Assembly (NCBI RefSeq): GCF_023055435.1
Contig: NW_025963791.1
Coordinates: 23,002,001-23,066,000, forward strand
DNA: 64,000 bases
Source: Haliotis rufescens
Lineage: Eukaryota
Direction of reading: 5' to 3'
The translations under genes were made by a program, and so were the position numbers. A model generated the notes under the pieces. That model saw only the letters and a program-made list of their open reading frames with translations, was not told where the DNA came from and ran no database searches. Below are positions 20,685 to 60,369 of the stretch, piece after piece. Position 1 is the stretch's first letter; each line of letters begins with the position of its first letter.

Positions 20685-22057
20685 TACCTCAGACACGTAC
20701 ACAATTCTAATACAGTAAAATATGCAATGATGTAATTCGGGAAACTATACGTTTGCTTGTCAACAATTAGTCAATTTGTTGTTGTTTTTGTTGTTGAAAA
20801 CGAATGACAAACTCTCAGTGTTAATTCGCCAATGTCCTTCATCGTATCCCTGTAATACCAATGGCTCTGTAACAAAATGACCACACTACTTGTAGCTGAT
20901 GTCGTGCTTGTCAAATACGGTCTTGACCTAGTTCTTCCGTGGCCCCCGACTGTTTTGGTTCCCAAGAAAAAAACATGCATGGGTTGCTGAAGACCTATTC
21001 TACCCAGGATCTTCACGGGTCAATTAGTCCATTTGTTATTGTGTTGAAAACATGTAACCAAATGATTCCGATTAGTCAAGACATGGTATCAAACGTCATA
21101 ATAAACGTCACCCCAATACCAACACTCACTTACAAAGACGTTTTAGAAACGTGTGAACGGCTTTCTGTAATTAATCAAGTCTGGGCCAGACAATCCAGTG
21201 ATGGTTATCATGAGCATTGATACACACAATTGGTATATGATGACATGCATCAACCAAGTCAGCGAGCCTGACCACCAGATCCGTTAGTCACCTCTTATGA
21301 CAAGCATTGTCGCCTCTTACAAGCATGGGTTGCTGAAGACTTTAATAAACCTACTGGCTGTTTGTGTAACTCGATATGGAGTTTTTGAAATTGTGGTAAC
21401 ACCTCGTAGGAGGTATTACAACGTTTGTAACACCTCGCAGGAGGGCTTACAATCATCATAACTTCCGTTCAGATTGTAACATGTAATGAAATGTAAAATC
21501 AAATGACAAATGTTTTCCTACGGCCCCCTCGGGACGTTCTCTCATGTGAGGGTTTACAATCTCTAGTAATCCCTCGGAGACATGGTTTCTCCTACACTTC
21601 TACCCTGGATCTTCTCAGCCATTATGCAGCATCCCAGTCTCTTAGAAACAGCACAAGAACACAGTCATATGGAAGCTGCAACAACTGACACAGGCATGTG
21701 ATAACAGTGCATCAACAAGAACTCACTTCAACACAGGGTTCCAGCTGAGAATTTTACAGGTCTTCAGCAACCCATGCTTGCTGTAAGAGGCGACCATGCT
21801 TGTCATAAGAGGCAACTAACGGGATTGGATGGTCAGGCTAGCTGACTTGGTTGATGCATAGCATCGCCTCCCAATTGTGTGGATCGATGCTCATGATGTC
21901 ACACTGGATTGTCTAGCCCAGACTTGATTATTTACAGACCGCCGTCATATAGCTGGAATATTGCTGAGTTGGCGTTAAACAACAAACAAACATTTCTAGT
22001 GAATATAAGTGATGTATATAGTAACTAATGTCGATTATATTCCTGCCTGTGAACAAC

Positions 22058-22063
22058 TTTATT
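22058..22063 (-). terminator. Candidate RSAD1 polyadenylation signal
   Basis: First AATAAA seen on the minus strand downstream of the stop codon, just beyond the 60-bp array. Confidence 0.5.
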
Positions 22064-22186
22064 CAGAAAAAAAGTATCCAATTCAGTCCAGTCGGCAATA
22101 TTCGGTTGAATGATGGCCGAGTATGTACATGAACCACGTCTGCAGTATACATGTTCTTGGGGAATGGTTCATGGCTGCCATTTTAC

Positions 22187-25100
22187 TTTAGGTTTGAAGG
22201 CCAAGTCCAGCCGTAACAGTGATTGTCTCATGGCGTGTCATGTCACATATGATTTGAAGGCCAAGTCCAGCTGTAACAGTGGTTGTCTCATGGCGTGTCA
22301 TGTCACACTAGGCTTGAAGGCCAAGTCCATCTGTCTCATGGCGTGTCATGTCACGTTTGATTTGAAGGCCAAGTCCAGCTGTAACAGTGATTGTCTCATG
22401 GCGTGTCATGTCACACTAGGTTTGAAGGCCAAGCTCAGCTGTAACAGTGATTGTCTCATGGCCTGTCATGTCACGTTTGATTTGAAGGCCAAGTCCAGCT
22501 GTAACAGTGATTGTCTCATGGCGTGTCATGTCACACTAGGCTTGAAGGCCAAGCCCAGCTGTAACAGTGATTGTGTCATGGCGTGTCATGTCACACTAGG
22601 TTTGAAGGCCTAGTCCAGCTGTAACAGTGATTGTCTCATGGCGTGTCATGTCACACTAGGTTTGAAGGCCAAGTCCAGCTGTAACAGTGATTGTCTCATG
22701 GCGTGTCATGTCACACTAGGTTTGAAGGCCTAGTCCAGCTGTAACAGTGATTGTCTCATGGCGTGTCATGTCACACTAGGTTTGAAGGCCAAGTCCAGCC
22801 GTAACAGTGATTGTCTCAGGGCGTGTCATGTCACATTTGATTTGAAGGCCAAGTCCAGCTGTAACAGTGATTGTCTCATGGCGTGTCATGTCACACAAGG
22901 CTTGAAGGCCAAGCCCAGCTGTAACAGTGATTGTCTCATGGCGTGTCATGTCACACTAGGCTTGAAGGCCAAGTCCAGCTGTAACAGTGGTTGTCTCATG
23001 GCTTGTCATGTCACACTAGGCTTGAAGGCCAAGCCCAGCTGTTACAGTGATTGTCTCATGGCGTGTCATGTCACACTAGGTTTGAAGGCCAAGTCCAGCC
23101 GTAACAGTGATTGTCTCATGGCGTGTCATGTCACGTTTGATTTGAAGGCCAAGTCCAGCTGTAACAGTGATTGTCTCATGGCGTGTCATGTCACGTTAGA
23201 TCTGTAGGCCAAGTCCAGCCGTAACAGTGATTGTCTCATGGCGTGTCATGTCACATTTGATTTGAAGGCCAAGTCCAGCTGTAACAGTGATTGTATCATG
23301 GCGTGTCATGTCACACTAGGCTTGAAGGCCAAGCCCAGCCGTAACAGTGATTGTATCATGGCGTGTCATGTCACGTTTGATTTGAAGGCCAAGTCCAGCT
23401 GTAACAGTGATTGTCTCATGGCGTGTCATGTCACACTAGGCTTGAAGGCCAAGCCCAGCCGTAACAGTGATTGTCTCATGGCGTGTCATGTCACACTAGG
23501 TTTGAAGGCCTAGTCCAGCTGTAACAGTGATTGTCTCATGGCGTGTCATGTCACACTAGGTTTGAAGGCCAAGTCCAGCTGTAACAGTGATTGTCTCATG
23601 GCGTGTCATGTCACACTAGGTTTGAAGGCCAAGTCCAGCTGTAACAGTGATTGTCTCATGGCGTGTCATGTCACACTAGGTTTGAAGGCCTAGTCCAGCT
23701 GTAACAGTGATTGTCTCATGGCGTGTCATGTCACACTAGGTTTGAAGGCCTAGTCCAGCTGTAACAGTGATTGTCTCATGGCGTGTCATGTCACACTAGG
23801 TTTGAAGGCCTAGTCCAGCTGTAACAGTGATTGTCTCATGGCGTGTCATGTCACACTAGGTTTGAAGGCCAAGTCCAGCTGTAACAGTGATTGTCTCATG
23901 GCCTGTCATGTCACGTTTGATTTGAAGGCCAAGTCCAGCTGTAACAGTGATTGTATCATGGCGTGTCATGTCACACAAGGCTTTGAAGGCCAAGCCCAGC
24001 TGTAACAGTGATTGTCTCATGGCGTGTCATGTCACACTAGGCTTGAAGGCCAAGTCCAGCTGTAACAGTGGTTGTATCATGGCGTGTCATGTCACACTAG
24101 GCTTGAAGGCCAAGTCCAGCTGTAACAGTGGTTGTCTCAGGGCGTGTCATGTCACACTAGGTTTGAAGGCCAAGTCCAGCTGTAACAGTGATTGTCTCAG
24201 GGCGTGTCATGTCACACTAGGTTTGAAGGCCAAGTCCAGCTGTAACAGTGATTGTCTCATGGCGTGTGATGTCACGTTTGATTTGAAGGCTGAGTCCAGC
24301 TGTAACAGTGATTGTCTCATGGCGTGTCATGTCACGTTAGATCTGTAGGCCAAGTCCAGCTGTAACAGTGATTGTCTAATGGCGTGTCATGTCACACTAG
24401 GTTTGAAGGCCAAGTCCAGCCGTAACAGTGATTGTCTCATGGCGTGTCATGTCACATTTGATTTGAAGGCCAAGTCCAGCTGTTACAGTGATTGTATCAT
24501 GGCGTGTCATGTCACACTAGGCTTGAAGGCCAAGCCCAGCCGTAACAGTGATTGTATCATGGCGTGTCATGTCACGTTTGATTTGAAGGCCAAGTCCAGC
24601 TGTAACAGTGATTGTCTCATGGCGTGTCATGTCACATATGATTTGAAGGCCAAGTCCAGCTGTAACAGTGATTGTATCATGGTGTGTCATGTCACACTAG
24701 GCTTGATGGCCAAGTCCAGCTGTAACAGTGATTGTATCATGGCGTGTCATGTCACGTTTGATTTGAAGGCCAAGTCCAGCTGTAACAGTGATTGTCTCAT
24801 GGCGTGTCATGTCACACTAGGTTTGAAGGCCAAGCTCAGCTGTAACAGTGATTGTCTCATGGCCTGTCATGTCACGTTTGATTTGAAGGCCAAGTCCAGC
24901 TGTAACAGTGATTGTCTCATGGCGTGTCATGTCACACTAGGTTTGAAGGCCAAGCTCAGCTGTAACAGTGATTGTCTCATGGCCTGTCATGTCACGTTTG
25001 ATTTGAAGGCCAAGTCCAGCTGTAACAGTGATTGTCTCATGGCGTGTCATGTCACACTAGGTTTGAAGGCCTAGTCCAGCTGTAACAGTGATTGTCTCAT

Positions 25101-26828
25101 GGCGTGTCATGTCACACTAGGTTTGAAGGCCAAGTCCAGCTGTAACAGTGATTGTCTCATGGCGTGTCATGTCACACTAGGTTTGAAGGCCAAGTCCAGC
25201 TGTAACAGTGATTGTCTCATGGCGTGTCATGTCACACTAGGTTTGAAGGCCTAGTCCAGCTGTAACAGTGATTTTCTCATGGCGTGTCATGTCACACTAG
25301 GTTTGAAGGCCTAGTCCAGCTGTAACAGTGATTGTCTCATGGCGTGTCATGTCACACTAGGTTTGAAGGCCTAGTCCAGCTGTAACAGTGATTGTCTCAT
25401 GGCGTGTCATGTCACACTAGGTTTGAAGGCCAAGTCCAGCCGTAACAGTGATTGTCTCATGGCGTGTCATGTCACGTTTGATTTGAAGGCCAAGTCCAGC
25501 TGTAACAGTGATTGTATCATGGCGTGTCATGTCACACAAGGCTTTGAAGGCCAAGCCCAGCTGTAACAGTGATTGTCTCATGGCGTGTCATGTCACACTA
25601 GGCTTGAAGGCCAAGTCCAGCTGTAACAGTGATTGTCTCAGGGCGTGTCATGTCACACTAGGTTTGAAGGCCAAGTCCAGCCGTAACAGTGATTGTCTCA
25701 TGGCGTGTCATGTCACATTTGATTTGAAGGCCAAGTCCAGCTGTAACAGTGATTGTATCATGGCGTGTCATGTCACACTAGGCTTGATGGCCAAGTCCAG
25801 CTGTAACAGTGATTGTATCATGGCGTGTCATGTCACGTTTGATTTGAAGGCCAAGTCCAGCTGTAACAGTGATTGTCTCATGGCGTGTCATGTCACACTA
25901 GGTTTGAAGGCCAAGCTCAGCTGTAATAGTGATTGTCTCATGGCGTGTCATGTCACACTAGACTTGAAGGCCAAGCCCAGCTGTAACAGTGATTGTCTCG
26001 GGGCGTGTCATGTCACACTAGGTTTGAAAGCCAAGTCCAGCTGTAACAGTGGTTGTCTCATGGCGTGTCATGTCACACTAGGCTTGAAGGCCAAGTCCAG
26101 CTGTAACAGTGATTGTCTCATGGCGTGTCATGTCACACTAGGCTTGAAGGCCAAGTCCAGCTGTAACAGTGGTTGTCTCATGGCGTGTCATGTCACATTT
26201 GATTTGAAGGCCAAGTCCAGCTGTAACAGTGATTGTATCATGGCGTGTCATGTCACACTAGGCTTGATGGACAAGTCCAGCTGTAACAGTGATTGTCTCA
26301 GGGCGTGTCATGTCACACTAGGTTTGAAAGCCAAGTCCAGCTGTAACAGTGGTTGTCTCATGGCCTGTCATGTCACACTAGGCTTGAAGGCCAAGTCCAG
26401 CTGTAACAGTGGTTGTCTCATGGCGTGTCATGTCATACTAGACTTGAAGGCCAAGCCCAGCTGTAACAGTGATTGTCTCAGGGCGTGTCATGTCACACTA
26501 GGTTTGAAGGCCAAGTCCAGCTGTAACAGTGATTGTCTCAGGGCGTGTCATGTCACACTAGGCTTGAAGGCCAAGTCCAGCTGTAACAGTGATTGTCTCA
26601 TGGCGTGTCATGTCACACTAGGCTTGAAGGCCAAGTCCAGTTGTAACAGGGATTGTCTCAAGGCGTGTCATGTCACACTAGGTTTGAAGGCCAAGTCCAG
26701 TTGTAACAGGGATTGTCTCATGGCGTGTCATGTCACACTAGGCTTGAAGGCCAAGTCCAGCTGTAACAGTGATTGTCTCAGGGCGTGTCATGTCACACTA
26801 GGTTTGAAAGCCAAGTCCAGCTGTAACA
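22187..26828. repeat. 60-bp tandem array, ~77 copies, containing RSAD1 C-terminal codons and stop
   Basis: unit GTAACAGTGATTGTCTCATGGCGTGTCATGTCACACTAGGTTTGAAGGCCAAGTCCAGCT. Confidence 0.98.
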
Positions 26829-26887
26829 ACAATGATGGTATCAAGGTATCCAAAACATCCAGCCCAGTGTCTGAAGCTCGAAGTCCT
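26788..26887 (-). CDS. RSAD1: RSAD1 last coding exon (end overlaps the 60-bp array)
   Basis: [32 protein letters not shown]. Confidence 0.9.
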
Positions 26888-29800
26888 CTGAAATGATACA
26901 TGGTCACAATGAATATATATTCATACAGTTGATTCCTACATAAACTTGCAAAGATGATACACAGCAGCAACTACACTAAATCAAGGCGAGCACTGACAAT
27001 TCAGAATCAGCCCACACAGTGAGTCCTACTTTGATCCAATAAGAAGCCCAAAGTGGTTGGTTGGTTGGTTGGTTGGTTGGTTAACGCCACATTCAGCAAT
27101 ATTCCAGCTATATGACAGCGGTCTATAAATAATCGAGTCTGGACCAGACAATCCAGTGATTGACATCATGAGCATCGATCCACGCAATTGGGATACGATG
27201 ACATGCATCAACCTGGGATACGATGACATGCATCAACCAAGTCAGCGAGTCTGACCACCCGATCCCATTAGTCACCTTTTACGACAAGCATAGTCGCCTT
27301 TAACGGCAAGAATGCCAAAGTGAGTGACCTGGCTTTATATACCCCAAGCTGGCTGATGAGTCATTAAGAGATAAACAGTCCCATTACCATCTCCTCCTAC
27401 CAGGTACCCCTTCACTGCTGGTGAACAGAAGCATATTTCAAACAAAATCTCTTGCCAGAGGAGACTCATTAACAATTATTTTAAGATTTCACATTAGTTT
27501 AAATAAAACATGTTTTTTATGCAATATCTACTATATTTCCATGAGCCTATGGTTTGGGAGAAAAAACCCCAACTAATTAATACTAAAAGCATCTGAAGTT
27601 CTCTTTAACAAGAAACGCCTGTACCGGGTGTCGAGGTGCAGCAAGCCCTGGTCCCGGTAAGACTGGATGGTGCCTGAGTGATGGAAGATGTCCTGAAGAC
27701 CAAGAGGAGAAACCTCCTCCCATCTGTCATGTGATATCCCCCAGCCTGTCCTAAGTCCTACCGCCACCATCTCCTCCAAACTGGACAGAAGAGCAACACG
27801 TCACCTTTCTCACTACGTCCACACTTGAAAGTATCTTTCTTCATACAATCATTCATTTACCAATTCATTACTTTGTTTAGGTCCATTTGGAAATTATAAA
27901 AACTAAAACAAATGCAACTGTTTTTTTCTCTTCCCATTGTAACAAATCAAAGCAACTCAAGAAACTCTGAGTCTGTTCAGAATACTACTTTAAGGCAACA
28001 TGAGTTACCTCCCTTGCTTGTCTCAAAACTCCTTCACAGTCAGTAAGTATCTTTATAGTGGAGAGGGCTCCCAGAAAGGGCTATGGCTGTGAGTTTGAAT
28101 CTAAACGAAGGACTTCTTATCTTGGAGTTTCTTTTCTACACAAGGATGTGTCAATATTTATCAAGTGGAAAAAAATTCTATATTGTACGTTCCTAACACA
28201 TCAAACAAATCCTTGTCATTTATCAAATGATGTTTTGGTTTGAATCATCTTGGAAAATTAATGGTTCTATTTTCCTTGGTCAGGTTCAGTGTCGGAAATA
28301 AAGAAATTGCATTAGAAGCTGCAGACCCCAACTAAGCTCTTTTGGCCCTCATTCAAAACAATGCAGCTTATTGTGAAAGAAAAAAAATAAACACATAGAT
28401 AGAGTCACTGCAGGCATAAGGACCCATACACGTTTGAAACCATGAGCCCAACACAAGATCTACCTGCCACAGGCCTATGGGCAGGGGCTTATTTCAAACA
28501 CTGGGCAAGTCAATATTTTCAGAGCATCGTCACCAGCTTACTGATTTAGAAGTGTCTGTGGAACTATCTTGCGCGTAGCGTTCCCGAAGGCCTCAACCTC
28601 CCTCATCCAGATGTCTGGCTCCAGGGTCTGCACCCGCGCCTGTCTGGTACCCGCCACGTAGAACCTGCCATGGGCACCTAGGACATGATGGACACAGCAG
28701 TAATTAGCATTGTCTAAGAGTTATCTTGCCCCTGACTAGCAATTTGGAAAAAAGTCTCTCTTTTTTTTTTATCATAGTTCTTATTTTCTTAAATTAACAT
28801 TGTATTTTGATATGGAATTCAATGCAATATTATGAAACTAAGCATCAAAATCTCTACCTATTTATTGGTCTTGTTAACAATACAGGTTACCTTATTTAAT
28901 ACTTATTACATGAATTGGGAAATTTATAATTCCAAATCGGGTATTTTTAATGACATTGGCTGCCAGCTTGGGGCCAAATATTGGGCTCTGAGCAGGTAAA
29001 GATAAATCCCTAGGATCCTCCAGGTGATGCCAGAGAGGATTCCCTAGGTGATGACAGTGGATCCCCCAGGTGATGCCAGAGTGGATCCCCCAGGTGATGA
29101 GAGTGGATCCTCCAGGTGATGAGAGGGGATCCTCCAGGTGATGCCAGAGAGGATTCCCCAGGTGATGACAGTGGATCCTGAAGGTGATGCCAGAGAGGGT
29201 TCCCCAGGTGATGACAGTGGATCCTCCAGGTGATGACAGTGGATCCTCCAGGTGATGACAGTGGATCCTCCAGGTGATGACAGTGAGAATTCCCCAGGTG
29301 ATGACAGTGGATCCTCCAGGTGATGACAGTGGATCCTCCAGGTGATGACAGTGGATCCTCCAGGTGATGCCAGAGAGGGTTCCCCAGGTGATGACAGTGG
29401 ATCCTCCAGGTGATGCCAGTGGATCCTCCAGGGGATGCCAGAGAAGGTTCCCCAGGTGATGACAGTGGATCCTCCAGGTGATGACAGTGGATCCTCCAGG
29501 TGATGCCAGAGAGGATTCCCCAGGTGATGACAGTTGACCCCCCAGGTGATGACAGTGGATCCTCCAGGTGATGACAGTGAGAATTCCCCAGGTGATGACA
29601 GTGGATCCTCCAGGTGATGCCAGAGAGGGTTCCCCAGGTGATGACAGTGGATCCTCCAGGTGATGACAGAGTGGATCCTCCAGATGATGACAGTGAGAAT
29701 TCCCCAAGTGATGACAGTGGATCCTCCAGGTGATGACAGTGGATCCTCCAGGTGATGCCAGAGAGGGTTCCCCAGGTGATGACAGTGGATCCTCCAGGTG

Positions 29801-32800
29801 ATGCCAGAGAGGGTTCCCCAGGTGATGACAGTGGATCCTCCAGGTGATGCCAGAGAGGATTCCCCAGGTGATGACAGAGTGGATCCTCCAGGTGATGACA
29901 GTGAGAATTCCCCGGGTGATGACAGTGGATCCCCTAGGTGATGACAGTGGATCCTCCAGGTGATGACAGAGTGGATCCTCCAGGTGATGACAGTGATGAT
30001 CCTCCAGGTGATGATCCTCCACCCTTGCCGAACTAGGCTGGAATTCCGTGGCTCGATCATAGCACCACCAGTGGCTATTACAAGTTATGTTCCTTCTATG
30101 TCCTCCTATTGACCAATCAGATTCCACCTCTCATATCACATGCATTTGCTTCAAACAAAATGGTAGCACCAAGTCAAGACCAAATAAAATGTGCCTTACT
30201 TTGCAAAGTGCATCAAATCACTTGAGCACCTGGATTATAAACATGAAAAGATTTGAAAAATATCTGTTAACGGTACACATGCTCAGAAAATCCTGCAATC
30301 GACCAAAATCTGCACGTCAGTCGCCATGTTGTTTATGAACCGGATGTCGATTTCATTATACGATTTTGACTTGACTATACATAGACCTTTTAGTCCATAA
30401 TTCCAGCCTAGTTCAGCAAGGGTGGGAACTGGACATTTACAGTCAATTGACTCCCGTGCCTCAGGAAGATGGTTCCAGCATGATGCTGGCAAACCAAGTA
30501 TCATGATCAAGGTAAATATCAGATCCATAGGGATGCAACTCTGCACCGCACCTTGAACTTGTTTTTGCTGACTAATATCCTGAATCTCAGTGTGCTTGTG
30601 ACCTACCTGGCCCAACACCTATATATGGCATCCCTCTCCAGTAGGTCAGGTTGTGGGTGCTGTATGCTTCCTGGTGAAAGACATTATTATCAAGATAAGT
30701 GTTGTTATTTATCTAGTTTCATTGAATTGTTCTATAATGAGAATTAGGCACACAGTAGGTCTGTCCAAAACAGACCCTCTCGGAACTCAAATTTAGTCAA
30801 AGAGTTTAGTTTAAGCAGAAGTATTAGTGAATGAGTTTGGTTTGATCTCTGATGCATCTTCTTTCATGATCACAGCTGGTGGGGGGTGGGGGGGGGGTGG
30901 GGGGGTGGGGGGTGGGGGGGGTTGGGGACCAAGAATTGGCTTCACACAGAAGGGAGGTCAAAACGGCCGTATGTCAGAAGGCCTCAAAACCTCAAAAGGT
31001 AAAGTCACAATGGCCTCAACAAGAAAGTCAAAAGGGCCACACAAAAAATATAGACAACAAACTCAATTATTAAGTCACATTAGGTCTACATTGTCCATAT
31101 AACAAGGAATACCTTTAACATTTAACTATTCTAACTATTCTGAAAGGACAACAAAGAGATTATTTTGCATAGGCGTCAGAAGTGGGGAGGAGTGATGGGG
31201 GGTGGGGGGTGGGGTTGGGGGGTTGGTGGTGTGTGTGTGTGTTATGTGAGGGGTCCAGGACCCCCCAGGGCCACCCTACCCAACCAGGTTTTTGAAGAAG
31301 AAAAAAAAGTAGCCAACACAAAGTCTTAACAATACTATCCTACATTTAGTGATTATATGAATTTTATTGGACTCGAATATTATGATCCTATCAACATACT
31401 TCATATCCTATCTAAGGTATGAAAAGTTACAGGTGCTTATCGCAGCTCACTAGTCACAACTGGTTACCTTCATAATTGGCTACAGAGAAATTAATCTTCC
31501 TGAAGACACGTTTGTGTTTAATTTTGAATCTCTAAACTATTGTTGCAAAATGGCTGTCCATGCGTATTTAGAATCTAAATAACTTAGACGAACTGGTCCA
31601 TAGACAGACAGACAGACAGACAGACAGACTATCACGGACAAAGGACAAAAACATACCACTGACCCTCTGTCACACAATAAATATGGGCTCACTCTGGGAT
31701 CAGGAAGATGTCTTGACTTAGGGTTTTGAGGCCGTTCTGACTACAACACACACAGGTACCCATGGGGACTTGTGCCAGGGCCTTCACCATGATCAGCCAA
31801 CATCAAAACCACCAGGTTAAACAACAGCCCCAGTATTGGTTAACATGCAATAAGCAAGTAGCCCTTGGTCAATTTATTTGTAACTCAATAAATACCGGAA
31901 ATGACAATAAATATATGCTTCATTTCTTATACTTTCTTTTCTATTATTCTTCAGGGGCGGTCAGGTAGCCTAGTGGTTAAATCGTTCGCCCGTCACGCCA
32001 AGGACCCAGGTTCGAATCCTGACATGGGTACAATGTGTGAAACCCATTTCTGGTGTCCCCTGTCGTGATAATGCTTGCTTATTGCTAAAAGCGATGTAAA
32101 ACCAAACTCACTCACTATTATTCTTCAAGTACATGTTAGTGCTGAGTGGAATACACTCTTATAACAAATGTTATATTTGGGATAACACTTTCTTAGTAAA
32201 GTACAGATTCTCGTACATTTTTGGGTTGAGTCCTGTCCAGAAAGTGTTATCCCAAATATAACATGTATTACAATTGACCACTTTCTAAATGGCATTGTGT
32301 ATTCATAGCTTCGGCCATGGGAGCCGTGCCAATTTACACTTGTCAGAGGGGTACTCAAAGTACGTTATCTAGACTACCAGTTGTCGGACTTCCATTTATG
32401 TGGAAGCCTCGGTGGCTGAGTGGGTTAGATCGCTGACTTTGTGTGCTGGCGATCAGGTGCCTCACTCTGGCAAGGGTGGGTTCCAATCCCGGAAATATAA
32501 CATTTCTTACATTTGACCACTTTGTAAATGGCATTGTGTATTCGAATACACTCTTGTTGATTAAGCTTCATTATATGTATGTTTTTCATACCTGTTTTGC
32601 AAAGTTTGACACTTCATATCTCTTGTATTCATGATCGGAGAGAATCTGAAATGTAAAATATATTTTCTGCAAATCATTTTCTTTCCTTGTATGATCACAT
32701 ATTGTTTATGTAATCATTTCTCTGATATGTCTCAGCTAGCCTCTCAGTTTGACTACCATTCATCTTTTAGCCTATATATATTGTTCATTTCTCAGCCTAT

Positions 32801-35800
32801 CGCTTAGCACAGCACCCTGGTTACAGCACAGTACCCTGGTTACAGCACAACACAGTACCCTGGTTACAGCACAGCACAGCACAGCACAGCACCCCGGTTA
32901 CAGCACAGTACCCTGGTTACAGCATAGCACAGTACCCTGGATACAACAGAGTACAGTACCCTGGTTACAGCACAACACAGTACCCTGGTTACAGCACAGT
33001 ACCCTGGTTACAGCATAGCACAGTACCCTGGATACAACAGAGTACAGTACCCTGGTTACAGCACAGGACAGTGAGTGAGTGAGTGAGTTGGGTTTAATGC
33101 CACTTTTAACAGTATTACAGTTATATTGTGGCATGTCAGCTTAATGTGGGAGGAAAGCCTGAAGTGATGCAGGTCTCAGACGTTTACCACTTCGGTGAAA
33201 CCCACAAGCACGGGTATGGTGCTGACAAACCTAGAAATATAATAAGGGCGAACCAGGATTCGAACCCACAATCATATTTTTCTGGCATGCCCAAGGGACT
33301 CTGCACAGGGAATCATTGCACCTTAGACGACTGGGCCACCAGCAGAGGACAGTGTCCAGGGTACGGCACATCACAGTACCCTGGTTACATCACATCACAG
33401 TACCCTGGTTACAGGACAGGGGAGTACCCTGGTCACAGCACAGCACAGTACCCTGGTTACAGCACAGGATAGTACCCTGGTTAGAGGACAGGACAGTACT
33501 CTGTTTATAGCTCAGCATAGTACCCTCGTTACAGCACAGCACAGTACCCTGGTTACAGCACAGCACAGTACCCTGGTTACAGCACAGGACAGTACCCTGG
33601 TTACAGCACAGGACATTTCCCTGTTTATAGCTCAGCATAGTACCCTGGTTACAGCACAGCACAGTACCCTGGTTACAGCACCCTGGTTACAGCACAGTAC
33701 AGTACCCTGGTTACAGCACAGCACAGCACAGTACCCTGGTTACAGCACAGCACACTGGTTACAGCACAGTACAGTACCCTGGTTACAGCACAGCACAGTA
33801 CCCTGGGTGCAGCACGGGACAGTACCCTGGTTACAGCACAGGACAGTACCCTGTTTATAGCTCAGCATAGTACCCTGGTTACAGCACATCACAGTACCCT
33901 GGGTACAGCACAGCACAGTACCCTGGGTACAGCACAGGACAGTACCCTGTTTATAGCTCAGCATAGTACCCTGGTTACAGCACAGTACAGTACCCTGGTT
34001 ACAGCACAGCACAGTACCCTGGGTACAGCACGGGACAGTACCCTGGTTACAGCACAGGACAGTACCCTGTTTATAGCTCAGCACAGTACCCTGGGTACAG
34101 CACAGCACAGTACCCTGGGTACAGCACAGGACAGTACCCTGGGTACAGCACAGCACAGTACCCTGGGTACAGCACAGGACAGTACCCTGTTTATAGCTCA
34201 GCATAGTACCCTGGGTACAGCACAGCACAGTACCCTGGGTACAGCACCCTGGTTACAGCACAGTACAGTACCCTGTTTATAGCTCAGCATAGTACCCTGG
34301 GTACAGCACAGCATAGTACCATGGTTACAGCATGGGACAGTACCCTGGTTACAGCACAGGACAGTGTCCTGGGTACAGCACAGCATAGTACCATGGTTAC
34401 AGCACAGTACAGTCCCCTCGTTACAGGACAGTTCAGTACTATTGTTTTCACATATATCTGCCTACCTGGACCGCAGCCTTGTACATGGTCGCCACATCAT
34501 CGGGGGACGGCATCCGCTAGAAACAGTCACATCAAGACATAGTGCCTGATACAAGTCAGCCTAATTGATATTACATAGAGACATCTTCTTCTTTTATTGA
34601 AGACTTTCTAAAGGAGGACTTATGAATCAACATGGATCTAAAGGAGCTTTTTTCAAAGGTTGCAAAAATATCATTGCAGTGGTCAAGCTCTCATTCCCCT
34701 GTTGTACTGATGTGACCACTGTGTGTTTACCGACATCCTTAAACAGCTATACTGACCACTGTGTGTTTACCAACTTCCTTAAACAGCTATACTGACCACT
34801 GTGTGTTTACCGACATCCTTAAACAGCTATACTGACCACTGTGTGTTTACCAACTTCCTTAAACAGCTATACTGACCACTGTGTGTTTACCGACATCCTT
34901 AAACAGCTATACTGACCACTGTGTGTTTACCAACTTCCTTAAACAGCTATACTGACCACTGTGTTTACCAACTTCCTTAAACAGCTATACTGACCACTGT
35001 GTTTACCAACTTCCTTAAACAGCTATACTGACAGCTGTGTGTTTACCGACATCCTTAAATAGCTATACTGACCACTGTGTGTTTATCGACATCCTTAAAC
35101 AGCTATACTGACCACTGTGTGTTTACCGACATCCTTAAACAGCTATACTGACCACTGTGTGTTTACCAACTTCCTTAAACAGCTATACTGACCACTGTGT
35201 GTTTACCGACATCCTTAAACAGCTATACTGACCACTGTGTGTTTACCGACATCCTTAAACAGCTATACTGACCACTGTGTGTTTACCAACTTCCTTAAAC
35301 AGCTATACTGACCACTGTGTTTACCAACTTCCTTAAACAGCTATACTGACCACTGTGTGTTTACCAACTTCCTTAAACAGCTATACTGACCACTGTGTGT
35401 TTACCAACTTCCTTAAACAGCTATACTGACCACTGTGTGTTTACCAACTTCCTTAAACAGCTATACTGACCACTGTGTGTTTACCGACATCCTTAAACAG
35501 CTTTACTGACCACTGTGTGTTTACCGACATCCTTAAACAGCTATACTGACCACTGTGTGTTTACCAACTTCCTTAAACAGCTATACTGACCACTGTGTGT
35601 TTACCAACTTCCTTAAACAGCTATACTGACCCCTGTGTGTTTACCGACATCCTTAAACAGCTATACTGACCACTGTGTGTTTACCGACATCCTTAAACAG
35701 CTATACTGACCACTGTGTGTTTACCAACTTCCTTAAACAGCTATACTGACCACTGTGTTTACCAACTTCCTTAAACAGCTATACTGACCACTGTGTGTTT

Positions 35801-38800
35801 ACCAACTTCCTTAAACAGCTATACTGACAGCTGTGTGTTTACCGACATCCTTAAACAGCTATACTGACCACTGTGTGTTTACCGACATCCTTAAACAGCT
35901 ATACTGACCACTGTGTGTTTACTGACATCCTTAAACAGCTATACTGACCACTGTGTGTTTACCAACATCCTTAAACAGCTATACTGACCACTGTGTGTTT
36001 ACCGACATCCTTAAACAGCTATACTGACCACTGTGTGTTTACCAACATCCTTAAACAGCTGGGTTCCTCTCTCCAGGGTCAGCTGATAAAGTGACAGGTG
36101 CTTGTCACATATGTCTATCATCTGCATATCGAGAAAACAACAAGTCATCACAAGTTTCTAAAGGATTTCTCTCTGCATCATTTGTCTAGTCCTCCATCTA
36201 TATGTAGATCAAGTTACATTACATAATTCCTAAAAGAGTTTAGCCACTATGAACACATTCTTCATTCATACCAGAAATTATCACTAGTAGGCAGCTACTC
36301 AATAACTCAGTTCAGATGCCACTATTTTAAATCCCTTGCCCATGTATGCCATATTTCATAAATAACAAGGATTTGATATTCTTCAGTTGGGAGGGAATCT
36401 TGAATTTATCCTAAATACATAATTTGTTCCAGGATAATATTGGAAAAAAAATAAAATTCCTTTATGTTACAAAAATAGGTTGGACATGCTGGATGTCCAG
36501 AATAAAATGTCTACTATAACAGGAAAGAATTGTATGAGCTGAAGCAGCAGATGACTAAACACATATTCTGTCTCCCAACAAACCAGTCTGCTATAAACAT
36601 ACCAATCTCATTAAAATCAGATCTTAGTTCTCGCTACAGCTAAACAAAGATCTGAAGACATCTCATTAGGGGTCACATCAGAACGACCTTTCATCCGACC
36701 AATCAGAGCGTCGCTTACCAGATCATGAAAGTGACAGTTGGAATGTGATTTCTCATCATGCAACCTCGAAAACTTTAACATGGGGTATTTCGAAAGATAC
36801 TTACTGGTTTAACGACTGAATCCTTACAATCTTGACCATCTATTAGCCATTCCAGGATATTTTTTTGTTCAGGTTTCAAATTTGTAATCGAGAATTTGTC
36901 AAAATATGCTTCGAAGCGTAGTCGCCAATTTGAAATTAGTGCCGTAAAGCTTGAGAAAGCTGTCTTCTGATAGCTCATTCCATTGGTCGATCAAAGTTCG
37001 CGCAAGGTCGGTCTGACATGACCCGTAATGGGATGTCCTCAGATCTTTGTTTAGCGATAGCGAGAACTAAGATCTGATTTTAATGAGACTGTACACATAC
37101 TTGTCGGAGCTCAGCTAGCCAGGCATGAACAGTCTGTCCTGGAAGACCAAACATCAGATCCACAGACACACGGCCAGGAAACAAGGCCCTACCCTCCCTG
37201 ATACACCTGCAAAATGGATGGGTGAGATGGTGAGATTGGTGGTGAGACGTTAGCGTACCAAGGGTTGTTGTTTGATGTTAAATGCTGCACTCAACACCAT
37301 TCCAGCTGTAGGATGGTGGCCTGTACATAATAGAGTCTGGTGAGTGAGTGAGTTTGGTTTTACGCCGCTTTTAGCAATATTCCTGCAATATCACGGCAGG
37401 GGATACCAGAAATGGGCTTCACACATTGTACCCATGTCAGGATTCGAACCCGGGTCTTCGGCATGACAAGTGAACTCTTTAACAACTTGGCTACCCGACT
37501 GCCCCTAATAGAGTCTGGACCGGGGTTTGAATTTATGACCAACAATCCATGTCACTATTAAGTTGCCTTGTACGCCAAGCCTAGTATTCTAGGGACTTAT
37601 TCTAACTTGAAATCCCCAGGCAGAAACAGAGTGAATATGGTTTCATGCCACTTTAAGCAATGTTCCAGCCTTGTCATGGCAGGAGTACACTAGTAGTGGT
37701 TCACACATTGTATCCGTGGGGAATCAAACCAAGGACTTCAGCATGATGAACAAACAATTTAACCACAAGACTATGCTACCCCCAAGACTACACAGCACAA
37801 TGACAGTATAGAGCAAAACTGTTTATCCTCCCAAATAGAGGTGTCTTCTCCTATTGCCTACAGTGCACTTTGCCTACAGTGTTATCAAGGCACACAATAG
37901 CAAAAATTCATCCCTCTACCCTAATGAACTTATCCAAGCAATACCATTGTCAACAAACAATGAATATTTTTACACGTGTATTAGGCTTGCAGTTTATTTT
38001 ATATATATGAACATAATAAAAAATGGATAATAAATATTTGATACTTCTCACAATGTAAAATCCAAGATTTGATCACCTGATAATCTTATTACACATATAT
38101 ATAGTTTATTATAATCTCCTACTAATTTTGGAGTTTCTCTTATTCTTGTTCAATCTTTTCCATAGCTGGAACTGCTCACTAGCTCCTCATGGGGTTTAGA
38201 TAACAATAGCTTGACTATGAACACAACTATTGTTTCAAAGGATTAATAACTCATGACTACGCACATCTACTGGGTGTTGAGAGGAAATACCAAGCTGCAG
38301 TTTTAACATAAATACCCCACTCAGTCACAGTAAACTGACTCCGAGCCGACAACTCCTTGTTTTAACACCTTAATACCGAGCACCAGGCAGGGTACCAACA
38401 AGTACCATCTTTAAAAGTCGTAAAGTATGATGCGGCCGGGGATTGAACTCTTACCTTCCAGACACTCTAACACTATGCCACGGGGGCGGTCTCTCCATAA
38501 ATGAACAGAAATGTTGTCAAATTATAGTGTCCACACTATTTCACTCTTTGTTTTCATTATGACACAAGCACCAAAATTTTGAATGCCGACAGACTGTTCT
38601 GATAGGTGTAGAGTGCTTCACATAAATCAAATGTTGACAGGCCGAATGCGTGCACTCATTCGTCGTCACTCACCCCTTTCCGTAACCTGTAAGATGACTC
38701 GTCCCCCTATCGATGAGTGTCATGTGCGAAAATATGACAAACCAATCAGAATGCGCGTATGATTTCAAGTTGTTCATCAAAGAATCACTCAGAAATAATT

Positions 38801-41800
38801 GTGATTTTACATATGTCTTGCATCTAAAAATATACCAAGACACAGTTAAATGTGTTCAATCATACTGTATAATTCTGCATGTCCAGGTGTGCTTTAAATT
38901 GCATCTGAAATATATATAACACATGGGGAAATACATGTGAACCCTTACGCAACGAGTTGACAATTGTTTTAGATATGCCCGTTTGCGCTAAGACTGAACC
39001 CGGTCGCAAAATGGCCACGAGAGGGGCACGAGTTGCTATCCGGCTTGTCCCGGAATAACAAAAGTTGGTCACGAATGTGTGTGCACTGTCAGCAGCATGG
39101 ATAACCTCATACCTCTCATCATTTAAACCTCTACCACTCTACCAGGTCAAACCACCAGCTCACCTTTCAGCCTCCTCCACAGTGTGGTCCCTGCCCAGGA
39201 CGGAGAGGTTGTCTTGTCTCAATGACTTGAACAAAAGAATAGCATTTCTAAGGTAAATGATGAAAGGGTAACTGTTCACAGAGCAAGGCTATGTTAAAGA
39301 ACAGACTTTCATCACCCTCATAGCCCTTGGACGGGTAACTGTAATGGGGACGATGCAGGGCTCAATAGCAATATTCACAAAATATTACATAACTACGCGT
39401 TGTGAGTAGTGACAATAATTAATAATGTGTTCCAAATACTTCTGGCACATGTAGTTTGCTGCTAAGAATATATATAATAACATCAAACTTGCTCCCATGA
39501 ATAAATGTCAATATTCATACCATGACAAACTCTACTGTTTAGTTTCATCTGATTTTATGCAATATTTGCCATTGCTGAAGATACAAACAATCAACAATGA
39601 CCTTTTTCACAATGATGTGACAGGTGAAATAGTGAATATAATTAGTTACGTAAGCTTAATGTGGAGGGAAAGACCAACATGACCACTTTTGTGAAATCCT
39701 CATGCACAGGTATAGAGCTGAGACACATATATAATATCATTATCTGAGAAAATCTAAGATTCAAACACACAAGCGCCTCAAACATTTGGACCACCTGTGA
39801 CCCCTCCCCATCTCAACAGCCAGTGTCAACACCTGTGCCCCCTCCCCCACTCAACAGTCAGTGTGAACACCTGTGCCCCCTCCCCCACTCAACAGCCAGT
39901 GTGAACACCTGTGCCCCCTCCCCCACTCAACAGTCAGTGTGAACACCTGTGCCCCCTCCCCCACTCAACAGTCAGTGTGAACACCTGTGCCCCCTCCCCC
40001 ACTCAACAGCCAGTGTGAACACCTGTGCCCCCTCCCCCACTCAACAGCCAGTGTCAACACCTGTGCCCCCTCCCCCACTCAACAGTCAGTGTGAACACCT
40101 GTGCCCTCTCCCCCCACTCTACAGCCAGTGTGAACACCTGTGCCCCCTCCCCCACTCAACAGCCAGTGTGAACACCTGTGCCCTCTCCCCCCACTCAACA
40201 GTCAGTGTGAACACCTGTGCCCCCTCCCCCACTCAACAGCCAGTGTGAACACCTGTGCCCCCTCCCCCACTCAACAGCCAGTGTGAACACCTGTGCCCCC
40301 TCCCCCACTCAACAGCCAGTGTGAACACCTGTGCCCTCTCCCCCCACTCAACAGCCAGTGTGAACACCTGTGCCCCCTCCCCCTACTCAAGTCAGTGTGA
40401 ACACCTGTGCCCTCTCCGCCCACTCAACAGTCAGTGTGAACACTTGTGCCCTCTCCCCCCACTCAACAGTTAGTGTGAACACTTGTATGTGCATTTCCAC
40501 ATCCTATGTACAGCCTGATGCTGGAGACCCATTGTGTCCTATGTACAGCCTGATACTGGAGACCCATTGTGTCCTATGTACAGCTTGATACTGGAGACCC
40601 ATTGTGTCCTATGTGCAGCCTGATACTGGAGACCCATGGTGTCCTACGTACAGCATGATACTGGAGACCCATTGTGTTCTATGTACAGCTTGATACTGGA
40701 GACCCATTGTGTCCAATGTACAGCCTGATACTGGAGACCCATTGTGTCCTATGTATAGCCTGATACTGGAGACCCATTGTGTCCTATGTACAGCATGATA
40801 CTGGAGACTCATTGTGTCCCATGTACAGCCTGATACTGGAGACCCATTGTGTCCTATGTACAGCCTGATACTGGAGACTCATTGTGTCCTATGTACAGCA
40901 TGATACTGGAGACCCATTGTGTCCTATGTACAGCCTGATACTGGAGACCCGTTGTGTCCTTTGTACAACCTGTTACTGGAGACCCATTGTGTCCTATGTA
41001 CAGCCTGATACTGGAGACCCATTGTGTCCTATGTACAGCCTGATACTGGAGACCCGTTGTGTCCTATGTACAGCCTGATACTGGAGACCCATTGTGTCCT
41101 ATGTACAGCCTGATACTGGAGACCCGTTGTGTCCTATGTACAGCCTTATACTGGAGACCCATTGTGTCCTATGTACAGCCTGATACTGGAGACCCATTGT
41201 GTCCTATGTACAGCCTGATACTGGAGACCCATTGTGTCCTATGTACAGCCTGATACTGGAGACCCATTGTGTCCTATGTGCAGCCTGATACTGGAGACCC
41301 ATTGTGTCCCATGTACAGCCTGATACTGGAGACCCATTGTGTCCTATGTACAGCCTGATACTGCAGACCCATTGTGTTCTATGTACAGCTTGATACTGGA
41401 GACCCATTGTGTCCTATGTGCAGCCTGATACTCGAGACCCATTGTGTCCTATGTGCAGCCTGATACTGGAGACCCATGGTGTTCTATGTACAGCCTGATA
41501 CTAGAGACCAAATGTGTCCTATGACACACACAGGCTTGGTGGAAAGTAGAAACAAAACAATGAGCTCATTACCTGTACTCCAATAGAAAGTCGATTTACA
41601 CCTGCATCACAGAATTCTCTGAAAAAACAAGTTATGCCTGTGTAGTAAAATCAGCAAATGGTTGATGTGTAACTGTATGTTAAACAGAAATGTGACATGT
41701 TCAAAAGAATAGTGATGTGTTCAACGGTATAGCAATATATTCAACAGTAATGCAATATATTCAATAGTAATGTGATGTTTTCAACAGTAATGCAATATTT

Positions 41801-44800
41801 CAACAGTAATGTGATGTATTCAATGGTAATGCAACATATTCAACAGTAATGTGATGTGTTCAATGGTAATGCAATATAGTCAACATTAATGTGATGTGTT
41901 CAATGGTAATGCAATATATTCAACAGTAATGTGATGTTTTCAACGGTAATGCAATATTTCAACAGTAATGTGATGTATTCAATGGTAATGCAACATATTC
42001 AACAGTAATGTGATGTGTTCAATGGTAATGCAATATAGTCAACATTAATGTGATGTGTTCAATGGTAATGCAATATATTCAACAGTAATGTGATGTTTTC
42101 AACGGTAATGCAATATATTCAACAGTAATGTGATGTATTCAATGGTAATGCAACATATTCAACAGTAATGTGATGTGTTCAATGGTAATGCAATATAGTC
42201 AACAGTAATATGATGTGTTCAATGGTAATGCAATATATTCAACAGAAATGCAATATATTCAATAGTAATGTGATCTGTTCATCAGTAATGTGATGTGTTC
42301 AACGGTAATGCAATATATTCAACAGTAATGTGATGTGTTCAATGGTAATGCAATATAGTCAACAGAAATGTGATGTGTTCAACGGTATAGCAATATATTC
42401 AACAGTAATTTGATGTGTTCAATGGTAAGCAACATAGTCAACAGTAATGTGATGTGTTCAACAGTAATGCAATATATTCAACAGTAATTTGATGTTTTCA
42501 ACAGTAATGCAATATATTCAACAGTAATGTGATGTGTTCAACGGTATAGCAATATATTCAACAGTAATGTAATGTGTTCAAAGGTAATCCAATATATTCA
42601 ACAGTAATGTGATGCATTCAACTGTAATGCAATATATTCAACAGTAATGTGATGTGTTCAACGGTAATGCAATATATTCAACAGTAATGTAATGTGTTCA
42701 AAGGTAATCCAATATATTCAACAGTAATGTGATGCATTCAACAGTAATGCAATATATTCAATAGTAATATGATGTGTTCAATGGTAATGCAACATAGTCA
42801 ACAGTAATGTAATGTGTTCAACGGTAATGCAATATATTCAACAGTAATTTAATGTTTTCAAAAGTAATGCAATATATTCAACATTAATGTGATGTGTTCA
42901 ACGATAATGCACTATATTCAACAGTAATGTGATGCGTTCAATGGTAATGCAATATATTCAACAGTAATGTGATGTGTTCAATGGTAATGCAATATAGTCA
43001 ACATTAATGTGATGTATTCAACAGTAATGCAATATATTCAACAGTAATGTGATGTGTTCAACTGTAATGCAATATATTCAACATTAATGTGATGTATTCA
43101 ACAGTAATGCAATATATTCAACAGTAATGTGATGTGTTCAACGGTAATGCAATATATTCAACAGTGGTCTGTTGAATATGCAATATATTCAAGAGTAATG
43201 TGATCTGTTCAACATTAATGTGATGTGTTCAACGGTAATGCAATATATTCAACAGTAATGTGATGTGTTCAACGGTAATGCAATATATTCAACAGTAGTC
43301 TGTTGAATATGCAATATATTCAACAACTGGGTCATGTGTGGTCCCCGCATTCAAGTGGATAACAAGAGACTCTGCCAAAAATGGTATTTGAGACTTTTAA
43401 TATATCCCTACACTTCTTGCCAACACTTGTCAAATTGAAGTCATACTTTAAATATTTTGACTGTATTCTTCAAAAAGCTTTATAAAACGGTTAAAGTGGA
43501 CATTGTTCATTATCAAATAATTGGACAAAACTAACCTCAAGCGATTTGTCTCCAGAGATGTTGGATTGGCCTCAAGAGTGATCTCCCCTGAGTCAGGCAG
43601 TGTTACCTGTGCTTTGACTTGATTAATGATACTTGCAATCGTGTCTGCGCTTGCTAAACTTGGGGTCCCTGGGGCAAACACAAAGAGAGGGAGTATATCC
43701 CATCAGCATCATGGCTCCGGTCACATACTCTACCCCAATCTCATTAAAATCAGATCTTAGTTCTCGCTACCGCTAACCAAAGATCTGAGGAAATCCCATT
43801 ACAGGTCAGAACAACCTTTCATCCGACCAATCAGAGCATCGCTTACCAGATAATGAAAGTGACAGTTGGAATGTGATTTCTATTTCTAATCATGCAACCT
43901 GGAAAACTTTAACGCAGGGTATTCGGAACGATAGTTACAGGTTTAACGACTGAATCCATACAATCTAGGCCATCTATTAGCCATTCCAGAACATTCTTTT
44001 GTTCAGGCTTCAAATTTTTAATGGAATATTTGTCAAAATATGTTTCGAAGCGTAGTCACCAATTTGAAATTAGTGCCGTAAAGCACAAGAATGCTGCCTT
44101 CTGATTGGCTAATGTCGACTTCTTGTCAGTCCTTCCATTGGTTGGTCAAACTTTGAGCAAGGTTAGTCTGACGTAACCCGTAATGGGATGTCCTCAGATC
44201 TTTGTTTAGCCGCAGGGAGAACTAAGATCTGATTTTATGAGATTGATTCTACCCAGGAGCAGGATTCAACCCTGGACTGCATGAACAGCAAATGCTTTAA
44301 CTACCCAAATAAAGATGGAAATTAACCCAAAACATCTACTAGCCAGAATAATGATAACAAAAAGCAATACCCCCCAAAATGTTTGAAATTTTAGCAACCC
44401 TGGGGATACCTTTAACATTAAGAAAACTGGTCCGGGCTAGCAGACTGGTGAATTCCACCCCTCTAAAAATAAGACTTGCTTATCATAACTTCAAATAAAT
44501 ATTCATTAATGACTTTGCTCATCTTGTTATTGTGGGAAAGGCAACAGCTAGATCATAACAGTGAGTGAGTGAGTGAGTTGGGTTTAACGCCGCTTTTAAC
44601 AGTATTCCAGTTATATCACGGCGTGTCAGCTTAATGTGGGAGGAAAGCCTGAAGTGATGCAGGTCTCAGACGTTTACCACTTCGGTGAAACCCACGAGCA
44701 CGGGTATGGTGCTGACAAACCTAGAAACATAATCGGGGCGAACCAGGATTCAAACCCAGAATCATAGGTTTCTGGCGTGCCCAAGGGACACAACTCTGCA

Positions 44801-48852: not shown

Positions 48853-49433
48853 CCCTAAGGACCGAAAAGGGGTGTTGGATCGTAATGACGTGTAAGTTTC
48901 CCTAAGAACGAAAAGGGGTGATGGATTGTAATGACGTGTAAGTTTCCCTAAGAACGAAAAGGGGTGATGGATTGTAAAGACGAGTAAGTTTTCCTAAGAC
49001 CGAAAATGGGTGTTGGATCGTAATGACGTGTAAGTTTCCCTAAGAACGAAAAGGGGTGATGGATTGTAAAGACGAGTAAGTTTTCCTAAGAACGAAAACG
49101 GGTGTTGGATCGTAAAGATGTCTAAGTTTCCCTAAGACCAAAAACGGGTGTTGGATCGTAAATACGTATAAGTTTCCCTAAGACCGAAAACGGGTGTTGG
49201 ATCGTAAAGACGTGTAAGTTTCCCTAAGACTGAAAACGGGTGTTGGATCGTAAAGACGTGTAAGTTTCCCTAAGACCGAAAACGGGTGTTGGATCGTAAA
49301 GACGTGTAAGTTTCCCTAAGACCGAAAACGGGTGTTGGATCGTAAAGATGTGTAAGATTCCCTAAGACCGAAAACGGGTGTTGGATCGTAAGGATGTGTA
49401 AGTTTCCCTAGACCGAAAATGAGTGTTGGATCA
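48853..49433. repeat. 46-bp minisatellite, ~12.5 copies
   Basis: CCCTAAGACCGAAAACGGGTGTTGGATCGTAAAGACGTGTAAGTTT. Confidence 0.96.
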
Positions 49434-60228: not shown

Positions 60229-60369
60229 TTCGCTCGTTACGCCGAAGACACGGGTTCGATTCCCGACATGGGTACAATGTGTGAAGCCCATTTCTGGTGT
60301 CCCCCACCGTGATATTGTTGGAATATTGCTAAAAAAAAAACGTAAAACCATTCTCACTCACTCACTCAC
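60229..60369 (+). mobile_element. SINE family A, 5'-truncated
   Basis: B box, body and (ACTC)n tail. Confidence 0.82.

What the first reader, a model, noticed from the sequence alone, without database searches (positions are those of the whole stretch)
22058..26887. RSAD1 stop codon amplified ~77 times: a 4.6-kb satellite predicted to form the 3'UTR
Seen: the 60-bp unit on the gene strand is CTG TTA CAG CTG GAC TTG GCC TTC AAA CCT AGT GTG ACA TGA CAC GCC ATG AGA CAA TCA. These are the final 13 codons ([13 protein letters not shown]), the TGA and 18 nt of UTR, repeated in frame. The unit has no AATAAA, and the first one on this strand is at 22063-22058, just past the array. Inference: the mRNA would carry a ~4.7-kb satellite 3'UTR, a possible long-UTR NMD target or multivalent miRNA/RBP sponge. 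Gene conversion between units could swap C-terminal variants (KPSVT vs KSNVT) into the protein.
Basis: partly seen in the sequence, partly recalled or inferred. Interest (0 to 1): 0.7.

Follow-up and report, generated by a model that had tools for sequence, protein, structure and literature searches.

The report
Stop-codon minisatellite fills abalone RSAD1 tail
The last 13 codons and stop codon of an abalone RSAD1 gene are repeated about 77 times head-to-tail, and RNA assemblies carry these copies, so they likely give the message a 4.7-kb tail, but the protein is intact and the repeat is likely a tolerated by-product in a genome where such local repeats fill about an eighth of the DNA sampled.

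Summary
A single-locus 60-bp array (22189-26829, about 77 units) starts inside the last exon of an intact 14-exon RSAD1 gene, which matches the Haliotis rufescens RefSeq protein. Unit 1 supplies the true, ancestral stop codon.

RNA contigs support the long-UTR prediction. A spliced RSAD1 contig runs through the TGA into the array. Unit types that lie 0.9-4.5 kb behind the stop occur in two RNA-like runs, and summed unit depth is about 38 times that of the spliced contig. The poly(A) site, the strand and one continuous transcript are not shown.

Nothing supports a device. The fold is unremarkable, the units decay without coding constraint (12 of 73 carry early stops), and no C-terminal swap was seen. 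Similar locus-specific arrays cover 12.5% of 530 kb sampled, and the same gene has a 40-bp array that copies the exon-8 splice donor 31 times.

It is a stop-codon version of the 'mirage' / exon-stuttering minisatellites (lancelet, human F7, chicken), most likely neutral. This scan has noted stop-codon versions on other genomes (CINP, MRPS11, WDHD1, LSM11, Cdh1) and splice-site versions elsewhere in this genome.

The parts
26788..47389 (-). RSAD1 (HemW-like radical SAM protein) coding region, 14 exons, 438 aa, intact
   Evidence: exact exon chain to P0001; Pfam Radical_SAM + HemN_C; TIGR00539 HemW above cut-off, 266.6 vs 205.4 bits; one match in G000 for the exon-13 peptide
26788..26887 (-). 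Coding part of last exon (exon 14); TGA at 26790-26788
   Evidence: spliced RNA contig joins exon 13 to 26888
26770..26829 (-). Unit 1 of the array = last 13 codons + true stop + 18 nt
   Evidence: four Haliotis orthologues (P0001, P0002, P0003, P0005) end at the same position
22189..26829 (-). 60-bp minisatellite, about 77 units, two main subfamilies (KPSVT and KSNVT type), internal block duplications up to 252 bp identical at 1561 bp distance
   Evidence: single locus, 30 of 30 pattern hits lie here
22280..22387 (-). Unit pair with a 12-bp deletion (48-bp unit); its junction occurs once in the window, 4.45 kb behind the stop
   Evidence: same junction as a loose end in X17 (RNA-like) and X2 (DNA)
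22160..22219 (-). Diverged terminal unit that escaped homogenisation
   Evidence: its second half matches the unit at 19 of 29 columns, shuffle p = 0.0002; more diverged still in organism B DNA
22058..22063 (-). First AATAAA behind the stop; predicted poly(A) signal (use not shown)
   Evidence: two TGTA motifs and a T run lie just upstream; no difference at these 6 bases in organism B (uninformative at about 6% divergence)
34713..36060 (-). Second exon-boundary array in the same gene: 40-bp unit = last 32 nt of exon 8 + its 5' splice donor, about 34 units, 31 donor copies; use of any later donor adds an early stop
   Evidence: the pattern tested occurs only at this locus
27573..27623 (-). Read-through frame into intron 13 (ends ...DAFSIN*), matching RefSeq isoform P0004 of another Haliotis; an alternative end that would skip the array exon
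   Evidence: not seen in RNA here (intron part 26890-27040 has no contig)

Best explanation
This is a locus-specific minisatellite made of the RSAD1 gene's own last 13 codons, stop codon and 18 untranslated bases; it likely arose by a local tandem duplication and likely persists as a neutral passenger because copy 1 still ends the protein correctly, while the other copies likely only lengthen the 3' untranslated region to about 4.7 kb. Shown: array, single locus, intact gene, ancestral stop in unit 1, decay of the other units, presence of units in RNA-like runs and in related species, and a genome-wide abundance of such arrays. Inferred steps: (1) seeding by slippage or unequal repair at a short microhomology (ATCA on both sides of the unit border); (2) growth and homogenisation by unequal exchange and conversion, which spared the terminal unit; (3) transcription through the array to the displaced AATAAA at 22063; (4) tolerance because ribosomes stop at the first TGA and no splice junction lies behind it. 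Arrays that extend outward from an exon edge leave the coding copy whole, which also explains the exon-8 donor array.
For: Background: 39 arrays of at least 500 bp and period at least 10 in 53 stretches of 10 kb (12.5% of bases; 25 of 53 stretches; 3 arrays of 4 kb or more). They are locus-specific: 1 cross-match among 48 arrays, between neighbours. The window has 9 such arrays. Two of the 8 arrays in the gene touching an exon is within chance (p = 0.29). Extrapolated, about 98,000 arrays would capture about 84 stop codons if there are 25,000 genes and seeds are 40 bp (both assumed). No coding constraint: only 23 of 73 units keep the peptide and 12 of 73 have early stops. No unusual fold: RNA z = -0.95; DNA z = 0.61 and -0.13; no Rfam match. 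Block duplications and a diverged end unit fit ordinary array turnover, as described for lancelet mirages (PMC3087553, passages). Transcription: 922-nt spliced contig in X15, identical over 26770-26888 and running 38 nt further. Six alternative contigs at one unit position sum to about 390 against 10.2 for the spliced contig.
Against: The array is shared by at least three organisms (A; B in DNA; D in an RNA-like run), so it has persisted across speciation, which neutrality allows but does not predict. No RNA contig covers the unique 3' flank or the AATAAA in 3 of 3 RNA-like runs, whereas DNA run X10 does. This is weak, because DNA run X2 and two RNA-like runs also lack the unique exon. Contigs show no strand and no single molecule beyond unit 2. 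No expression effect was measured, so neutrality is inferred, not shown.
Confidence: 0.72

Rival explanations
1. The array is a regulatory 3'UTR: its length tunes RSAD1 output through long-UTR NMD, through many identical miRNA or RNA-binding-protein sites, or through translation of the 17-codon mini-ORF that starts 6 nt behind each stop.
For: The units are in RNA. 47 ATGs in a GCC/GGCC-ATG context open a 17-codon frame (42 + 5). The array is kept in at least three organisms.
Against: No special structure. The mini-ORFs are a trivial result of the 60-bp period and are often broken (10 are cut to 9 codons). Similar arrays are common in the DNA sampled. The gene is expressed (spliced contig). No miRNA-site test was run.
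Confidence: 0.1
2. The array is a reservoir of alternative C-termini that conversion or unequal crossover moves into the coding unit, speeding up evolution of the protein's tail.
For: Unit 1 takes part in turnover: it is identical to unit 9 over positions 2-60 and shares a private allele with units 9 and 14. Array variants AFKSNVT (14 units) and AYRSNVT (2) carry the Asn and Tyr seen in the orthologues ending AYKTNVT and AYKCNIT. The last 13 residues differ at 6 of 13 from P0005 against 53 of 377 before them (p = 0.007).
Against: The same excess appears between P0002 and P0005 (3 of 13 against 28 of 377, p = 0.075), and against P0002 it is not significant (4 of 13, p = 0.09). C-terminal tails generally evolve fast (own knowledge). 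All 3 coding copies seen are KPSVT. Two of four outgroup-like states among about 21 array alleles is within chance (about 0.15, hand estimate). The residues lie outside HemN_C.
Confidence: 0.07
3. Most RSAD1 mRNA is short (cleaved at a non-canonical site within the first units, or ending in intron 13 like isoform P0004), and the array RNA comes from read-through, an antisense transcript or the convergent fn3_4 (ATF7IP-like) gene.
For: No RNA contig on 22015-22179 in 3 of 3 RNA-like runs. Four RefSeq accessions of another Haliotis end in intron 13. A convergent + strand gene ends near 16,700. Contigs are unstranded.
Against: The spliced contig enters the array. Unit depth is about 38 times the spliced contig's, close to what a largely full-length tail predicts. 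No poly(A) hexamer among 13 tested lies in the array. The + strand has 6 AATAAA between 17996 and 21349, before the array. An antisense transcript would also have to cross the uncovered flank.
Confidence: 0.1
4. The array is an assembly artefact or much shorter in reality.
For: Copy number was not checked with long reads.
Against: 46 distinct unit strings with nested block duplications. The same rare variants appear in independent runs (48-bp junction in X2 and X17; YRSN type in X15 and X17). Units are multi-copy in organism B DNA.
Confidence: 0.01

Closest known systems
Amphioxus 'mirage' minisatellites (Adh3, globins BflGb6/BflGb9, troponin C, PGBD5; PMC3087553 and PMC3902484, passages read)
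   Same: Local tandem copies of an exon edge with its signal; the authentic copy stays in use; concerted evolution with boundary units excluded. The exon-8 donor array in this gene fits the description directly.
   Different: Published mirages span exon-intron borders and the copies end up in introns. Here the copied signal is the stop codon and the copies are in the mature RNA. The two BflGb6 haplotypes have 3 and 6 units against about 77 here.
Human F7 intron 7 37-bp VNTR (PMC1557585, abstract read)
   Same: The first element spans a functional signal and later identical copies stay silent because the most upstream one is used. It is a close match for the 40-bp exon-8 donor array.
   Different: A splice donor in an intron, with several copies, not a stop codon with about 77 copies in the UTR.
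'Sequence/exon stuttering' on chicken dot chromosomes (PMC12954441, abstract and 12 passages read)
   Same: Strictly local expansion of originally unique sequence, including exon edges, spans of 112 to 23,555 bp, in a repeat-prone genomic setting.
   Different: Defined for introns; 'stop codon', 'UTR' and 'last exon' occur 0 times in its main text. It is tied to GC-rich dot chromosomes, whereas here arrays were found across the 12 abalone contigs sampled.
3'UTR VNTRs such as human SLC6A3/DAT1 40-bp VNTR (recalled, not read here)
   Same: A tandem array carried in the untranslated tail, with debated effects on expression.
   Different: As recalled, not built from the coding end and stop codon, and far shorter.

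Membership tests
Minisatellite / VNTR | Head-to-tail units of about 10-100 bp in a kb-scale array | tested here: met
   period 60, 77.5 copies, 4.64 kb
Minisatellite / VNTR | Locus-specific unit rather than a dispersed satellite family | tested here: met
   30 of 30 exact hits of a 29-nt unit pattern lie in this array
Minisatellite / VNTR | Copy number varies between individuals | not testable with these tools
   only short contigs could be laid on the flanks; no spanning reads
Mirage / exon-stuttering repeat | Unit derives from the host gene's own exon edge | tested here: met
   unit 1 is the last 13 codons of P0001 plus the stop
Mirage / exon-stuttering repeat | Unit spans an exon-intron boundary and the copies lie in an intron | tested here: not met
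   the 60-bp array spans the stop codon and lies in the terminal exon; the 40-bp exon-8 array does meet it
Mirage / exon-stuttering repeat | Authentic copy is used and the product is unchanged | tested here: met
   spliced X15 contig has 0 differences through the stop; orthologues end at the same position
Mirage / exon-stuttering repeat | Concerted evolution with boundary units excluded | tested here: met
   mean pairwise difference 4.4 of 60 among units; terminal unit 49 of 60, more diverged in organism B
RSAD1 / HemW | Radical SAM CxxxCxxC + HemN_C domain, HNxxYW motif, HemW model above cut-off | tested here: met
   HNLTYW in exon 11; motif named in PMC10114718 (passage)
Long-3'UTR NMD target | Long distance from stop to poly(A) site in the real transcript, and stabilisation on UPF1/SMG loss | not testable with these tools
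   distance predicted about 4.7 kb; poly(A) site not covered by RNA contigs; no perturbation data
miRNA / RBP sponge | Many sites for an expressed miRNA or protein, and enough RNA to titrate it | not tested

The most novel reading that the evidence does not exclude
A gene's own coding end, amplified into a 4.7-kb tail that has lasted across several abalone species, acts as a copy-number dial on RSAD1 output (NMD or about 50 tandem downstream mini-ORFs) and as an archive of older C-termini (Tyr/Asn variants like those of distant Haliotis) that conversion can write back into the protein. Dozens of abalone genes would carry such stop-codon arrays.
Probability: 0.12. Interest if true: 0.65.

Novelty: new variant of a known kind. 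Interest (0 to 1): 0.3.

Why it matters
As a neutral passenger it shows that a conserved gene tolerates a repeat tail more than three times as long as its coding sequence. It also shows that abalone DNA is full of locally born minisatellites (about 12% of the sample), so exon edges and stop codons are captured by chance. That matters for annotation, because read mapping and gene models near such exons can mislead (compare isoform P0004). It offers a natural test of whether long-3'UTR NMD operates in molluscs: alleles or species with different unit numbers in one otherwise unchanged gene. If unit number tuned expression, or fed variants into the protein, it would be a new route from tandem repeats to gene regulation.

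Tried and rejected
(1) The idea that the array displaced an older C-terminus (terminal unit, KPKVKWQP*) was rejected: orthologues end at the unit-1 stop, and the terminal unit is a diverged copy.
(2) A dispersed satellite or transposon origin: not supported, since the unit pattern hits only this locus.
(3) A coding repeat: the gene-strand frames are open for at most 59 codons; the longest antisense frame is 447 codons, with no sign of use.
(4) A structured RNA or hairpin seed: z-scores near zero; no Rfam match.
(5) Enrichment of arrays at exon edges in this gene: p = 0.29.
(6) Polarising the tail residues with non-Haliotis molluscs: two protein searches returned only 2 clusters, both Haliotis.
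(7) Missing RNA cover of 22015-22179 is not taken as evidence of early termination, because holes also affect DNA run X2 on the unique exon.
(8) Genomic DNA as the source of unit contigs in X15 is unlikely: the run holds a spliced contig, 72 million letters of contigs against about 950 million for DNA run X2, and no intron cover. X17 and X19 are RNA by guess only.
(9) Copy number from DNA depth was not usable.
(10) Literature: 10 searches. None listed a paper on this locus or on a stop-codon-spanning UTR minisatellite; two searches returned 0 papers, and for the others only the top listings were seen. PMC8210747 (abstract) was not relevant enough to use. No supplements were read; those of PMC12954441 might list terminal-exon cases.
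(11) 27 of 80 background stretches requested did not exist; the 53 obtained came from 12 large contigs at fixed round positions.
Full report
Observation. TRF reports one array at 22189-26828 with period 60, 77.5 copies and 91% matches. On the minus strand it has 78 unit starts: 73 units of 60 bp, two of 61 bp, a 48-bp unit with its neighbour, and a diverged terminal unit. Each unit is 13 codons, TGA and 18 nt; the TGA survives in 76 of 78. The first AATAAA behind the stop is at 22063-22058, and none of 13 hexamers tested lies inside the array. The two 61-bp units break the frame, which does not matter behind a stop. A 29-nt unit pattern has 30 exact hits in the genome, all in this array.

The gene. 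The exon-13 peptide finds H. rufescens and H. rubra RSAD1. P0001 (XP_048248376.1) is read exactly from 14 blocks between 47389 and 26791, apart from two split codons. It has Radical_SAM and HemN_C domains and passes the HemW model, and the exon-13 peptide has one match in the genome. A review describes RSAD1 as a likely heme chaperone (PMC10114718, passages). Four Haliotis orthologues end at the same position (AFKPSVT twice, AYKTNVT, AYKCNIT), so the TGA of unit 1 is the ancestral stop. The terminal unit is an old copy, not a displaced C-terminus: its second half matches the unit at 19 of 29 columns (p = 0.0002), and organism B carries a more diverged version.

Is it in the RNA? I laid four runs on each flank. 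In X15 a 922-nt contig of depth 10.2 is spliced from exon 13 into exon 14, is identical through the TGA and all of unit 1, and runs 38 nt further. Six alternative contigs covering one unit position sum to about 390, about 38 times the spliced contig. Only 8 of the 16 X15 records were shown, and the tool warns that depth is not a copy number, so this is a rough figure. Differences identify two X15 contigs as KSNVT and YRSNVT types, which in the window first occur 0.94 and 2.44 kb behind the stop. X17, from another study and RNA by guess, holds the 48-bp junction that occurs once in the window, 4.45 kb behind the stop; DNA run X2 holds it too. Positions may differ in other individuals. Units also occur in an RNA-like run of organism D and in DNA of organism B. 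Against this, no RNA contig covers the unique flank 22015-22179 with the AATAAA in 3 of 3 runs, while DNA run X10 does. That hint is weak, because X2, X17 and X19 also lack the unique part of exon 14. Strand, poly(A) site and single-molecule continuity are not shown. A tail of about 4.7 kb is therefore likely but not proven.

Background. In 53 stretches of 10 kb from 12 contigs, TRF found 39 arrays of at least 500 bp with period 10 or more: 12.5% of bases, 25 of 53 stretches, and 3 arrays of 4 kb or more. Among 48 arrays (39 + 9 in the window) there was one cross-match, between neighbours. Extrapolation gives about 98,000 arrays and, with assumed values of 25,000 genes and 40-bp seeds, about 84 captured stop codons. 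RSAD1 itself holds 8 arrays. A second one, at 34713-36060, copies the last 32 nt of exon 8 with its donor (31 donor copies); any later donor would add an early stop. Two of 8 touching an exon is within chance (p = 0.29).

No sign of a device. Only 23 of 73 units keep the peptide and 12 of 73 have early stops. Folding z-scores are -0.95 for RNA and 0.61 and -0.13 for DNA, and Rfam has no match. About 47 GCC-ATG starts open a 17-codon mini-ORF, a by-product of the period. On conversion: unit 1 equals unit 9 over positions 2-60 and shares a private allele with units 9 and 14, so it takes part in exchange. Array variants carry the Asn and Tyr of more distant orthologues. But the tail also changes fast between P0002 and P0005, the three coding copies seen are identical in peptide, and the residues lie beyond HemN_C.

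Mechanism (inferred). A short duplication at the gene end, probably helped by the ATCA microhomology at the unit border, was amplified and homogenised by unequal exchange. Identical blocks of up to 252 bp at 1561 bp distance record this. The poly(A) signal was pushed 4.6 kb downstream. Ribosomes stop at the first TGA and no splice junction follows, so the protein is unaffected and the array is tolerated.

Comparison. It works like the lancelet 'mirages' (PMC3087553, PMC3902484; passages), the F7 intron-7 VNTR (PMC1557585; abstract) and chicken exon stuttering (PMC12954441; abstract and passages). It fails their defining feature of spanning an exon-intron border, so the 60-bp array is filed as a stop-codon variant, while the exon-8 array is a plain member. 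Ten literature searches listed no paper on this locus or on a stop-codon array (top listings only, no supplements). Earlier notes of this scan pointed me to the mirage and stuttering papers and record similar cases; I checked the papers but not those loci.

Verdict. Real, transcribed at least in large part, unusually long, but most likely a neutral product of a repeat-prone genome. Interest 0.3.

Noticed in passing
window 34713-36060 (-): 40-bp array that repeats the end of RSAD1 exon 8 with its splice donor (31 donor copies); every later donor would add an early stop. F7/mirage type. The length of the 922-nt X15 contig fits normal splicing across it, but those letters were not shown.
   Followed up: partly
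window 27573-27623 (-): Open frame into intron 13 matches RefSeq isoform P0004 (4 accessions, another Haliotis), which would drop the last exon and cut HemN_C; either a real escape from the array exon or a gene-model artefact.
   Followed up: partly
window 29013-30014, 32806-33072, 33340-34439, 39792-40486, 40502-41523, 41720-43297, 48853-49432, 60680-61987: Further unrelated local minisatellites (periods 20-46); arrays of 500 bp or more cover 20.7% of the window. Three start or end within about 30-100 bp of an exon.
   Followed up: partly
window about 4331-16724 (+): Convergent gene with a C-terminal fn3_4 domain, ATF7IP/MCAF-like by my recall of that domain; it has a 12/24-bp coding repeat ([12 protein letters not shown]) at 4772-5140.
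   Followed up: partly
window 60333-60743 (+): DUOXA (dual oxidase maturation factor) N-terminal exon; a 34-bp array begins at 60680, directly at the end of the matched part, possibly a third exon-edge array.
   Followed up: no
L012 4046-10000, L016 2171-10000, L030 1-6157: Background stretches with arrays of about 6 kb or more, showing that the 4.6-kb length is not extreme for this genome.
   Followed up: no
window 21865-21999 and 27000-27350: Copies of a very abundant short interspersed repeat flank the locus; thousands of contigs per run lie on 21865-21999.
   Followed up: no
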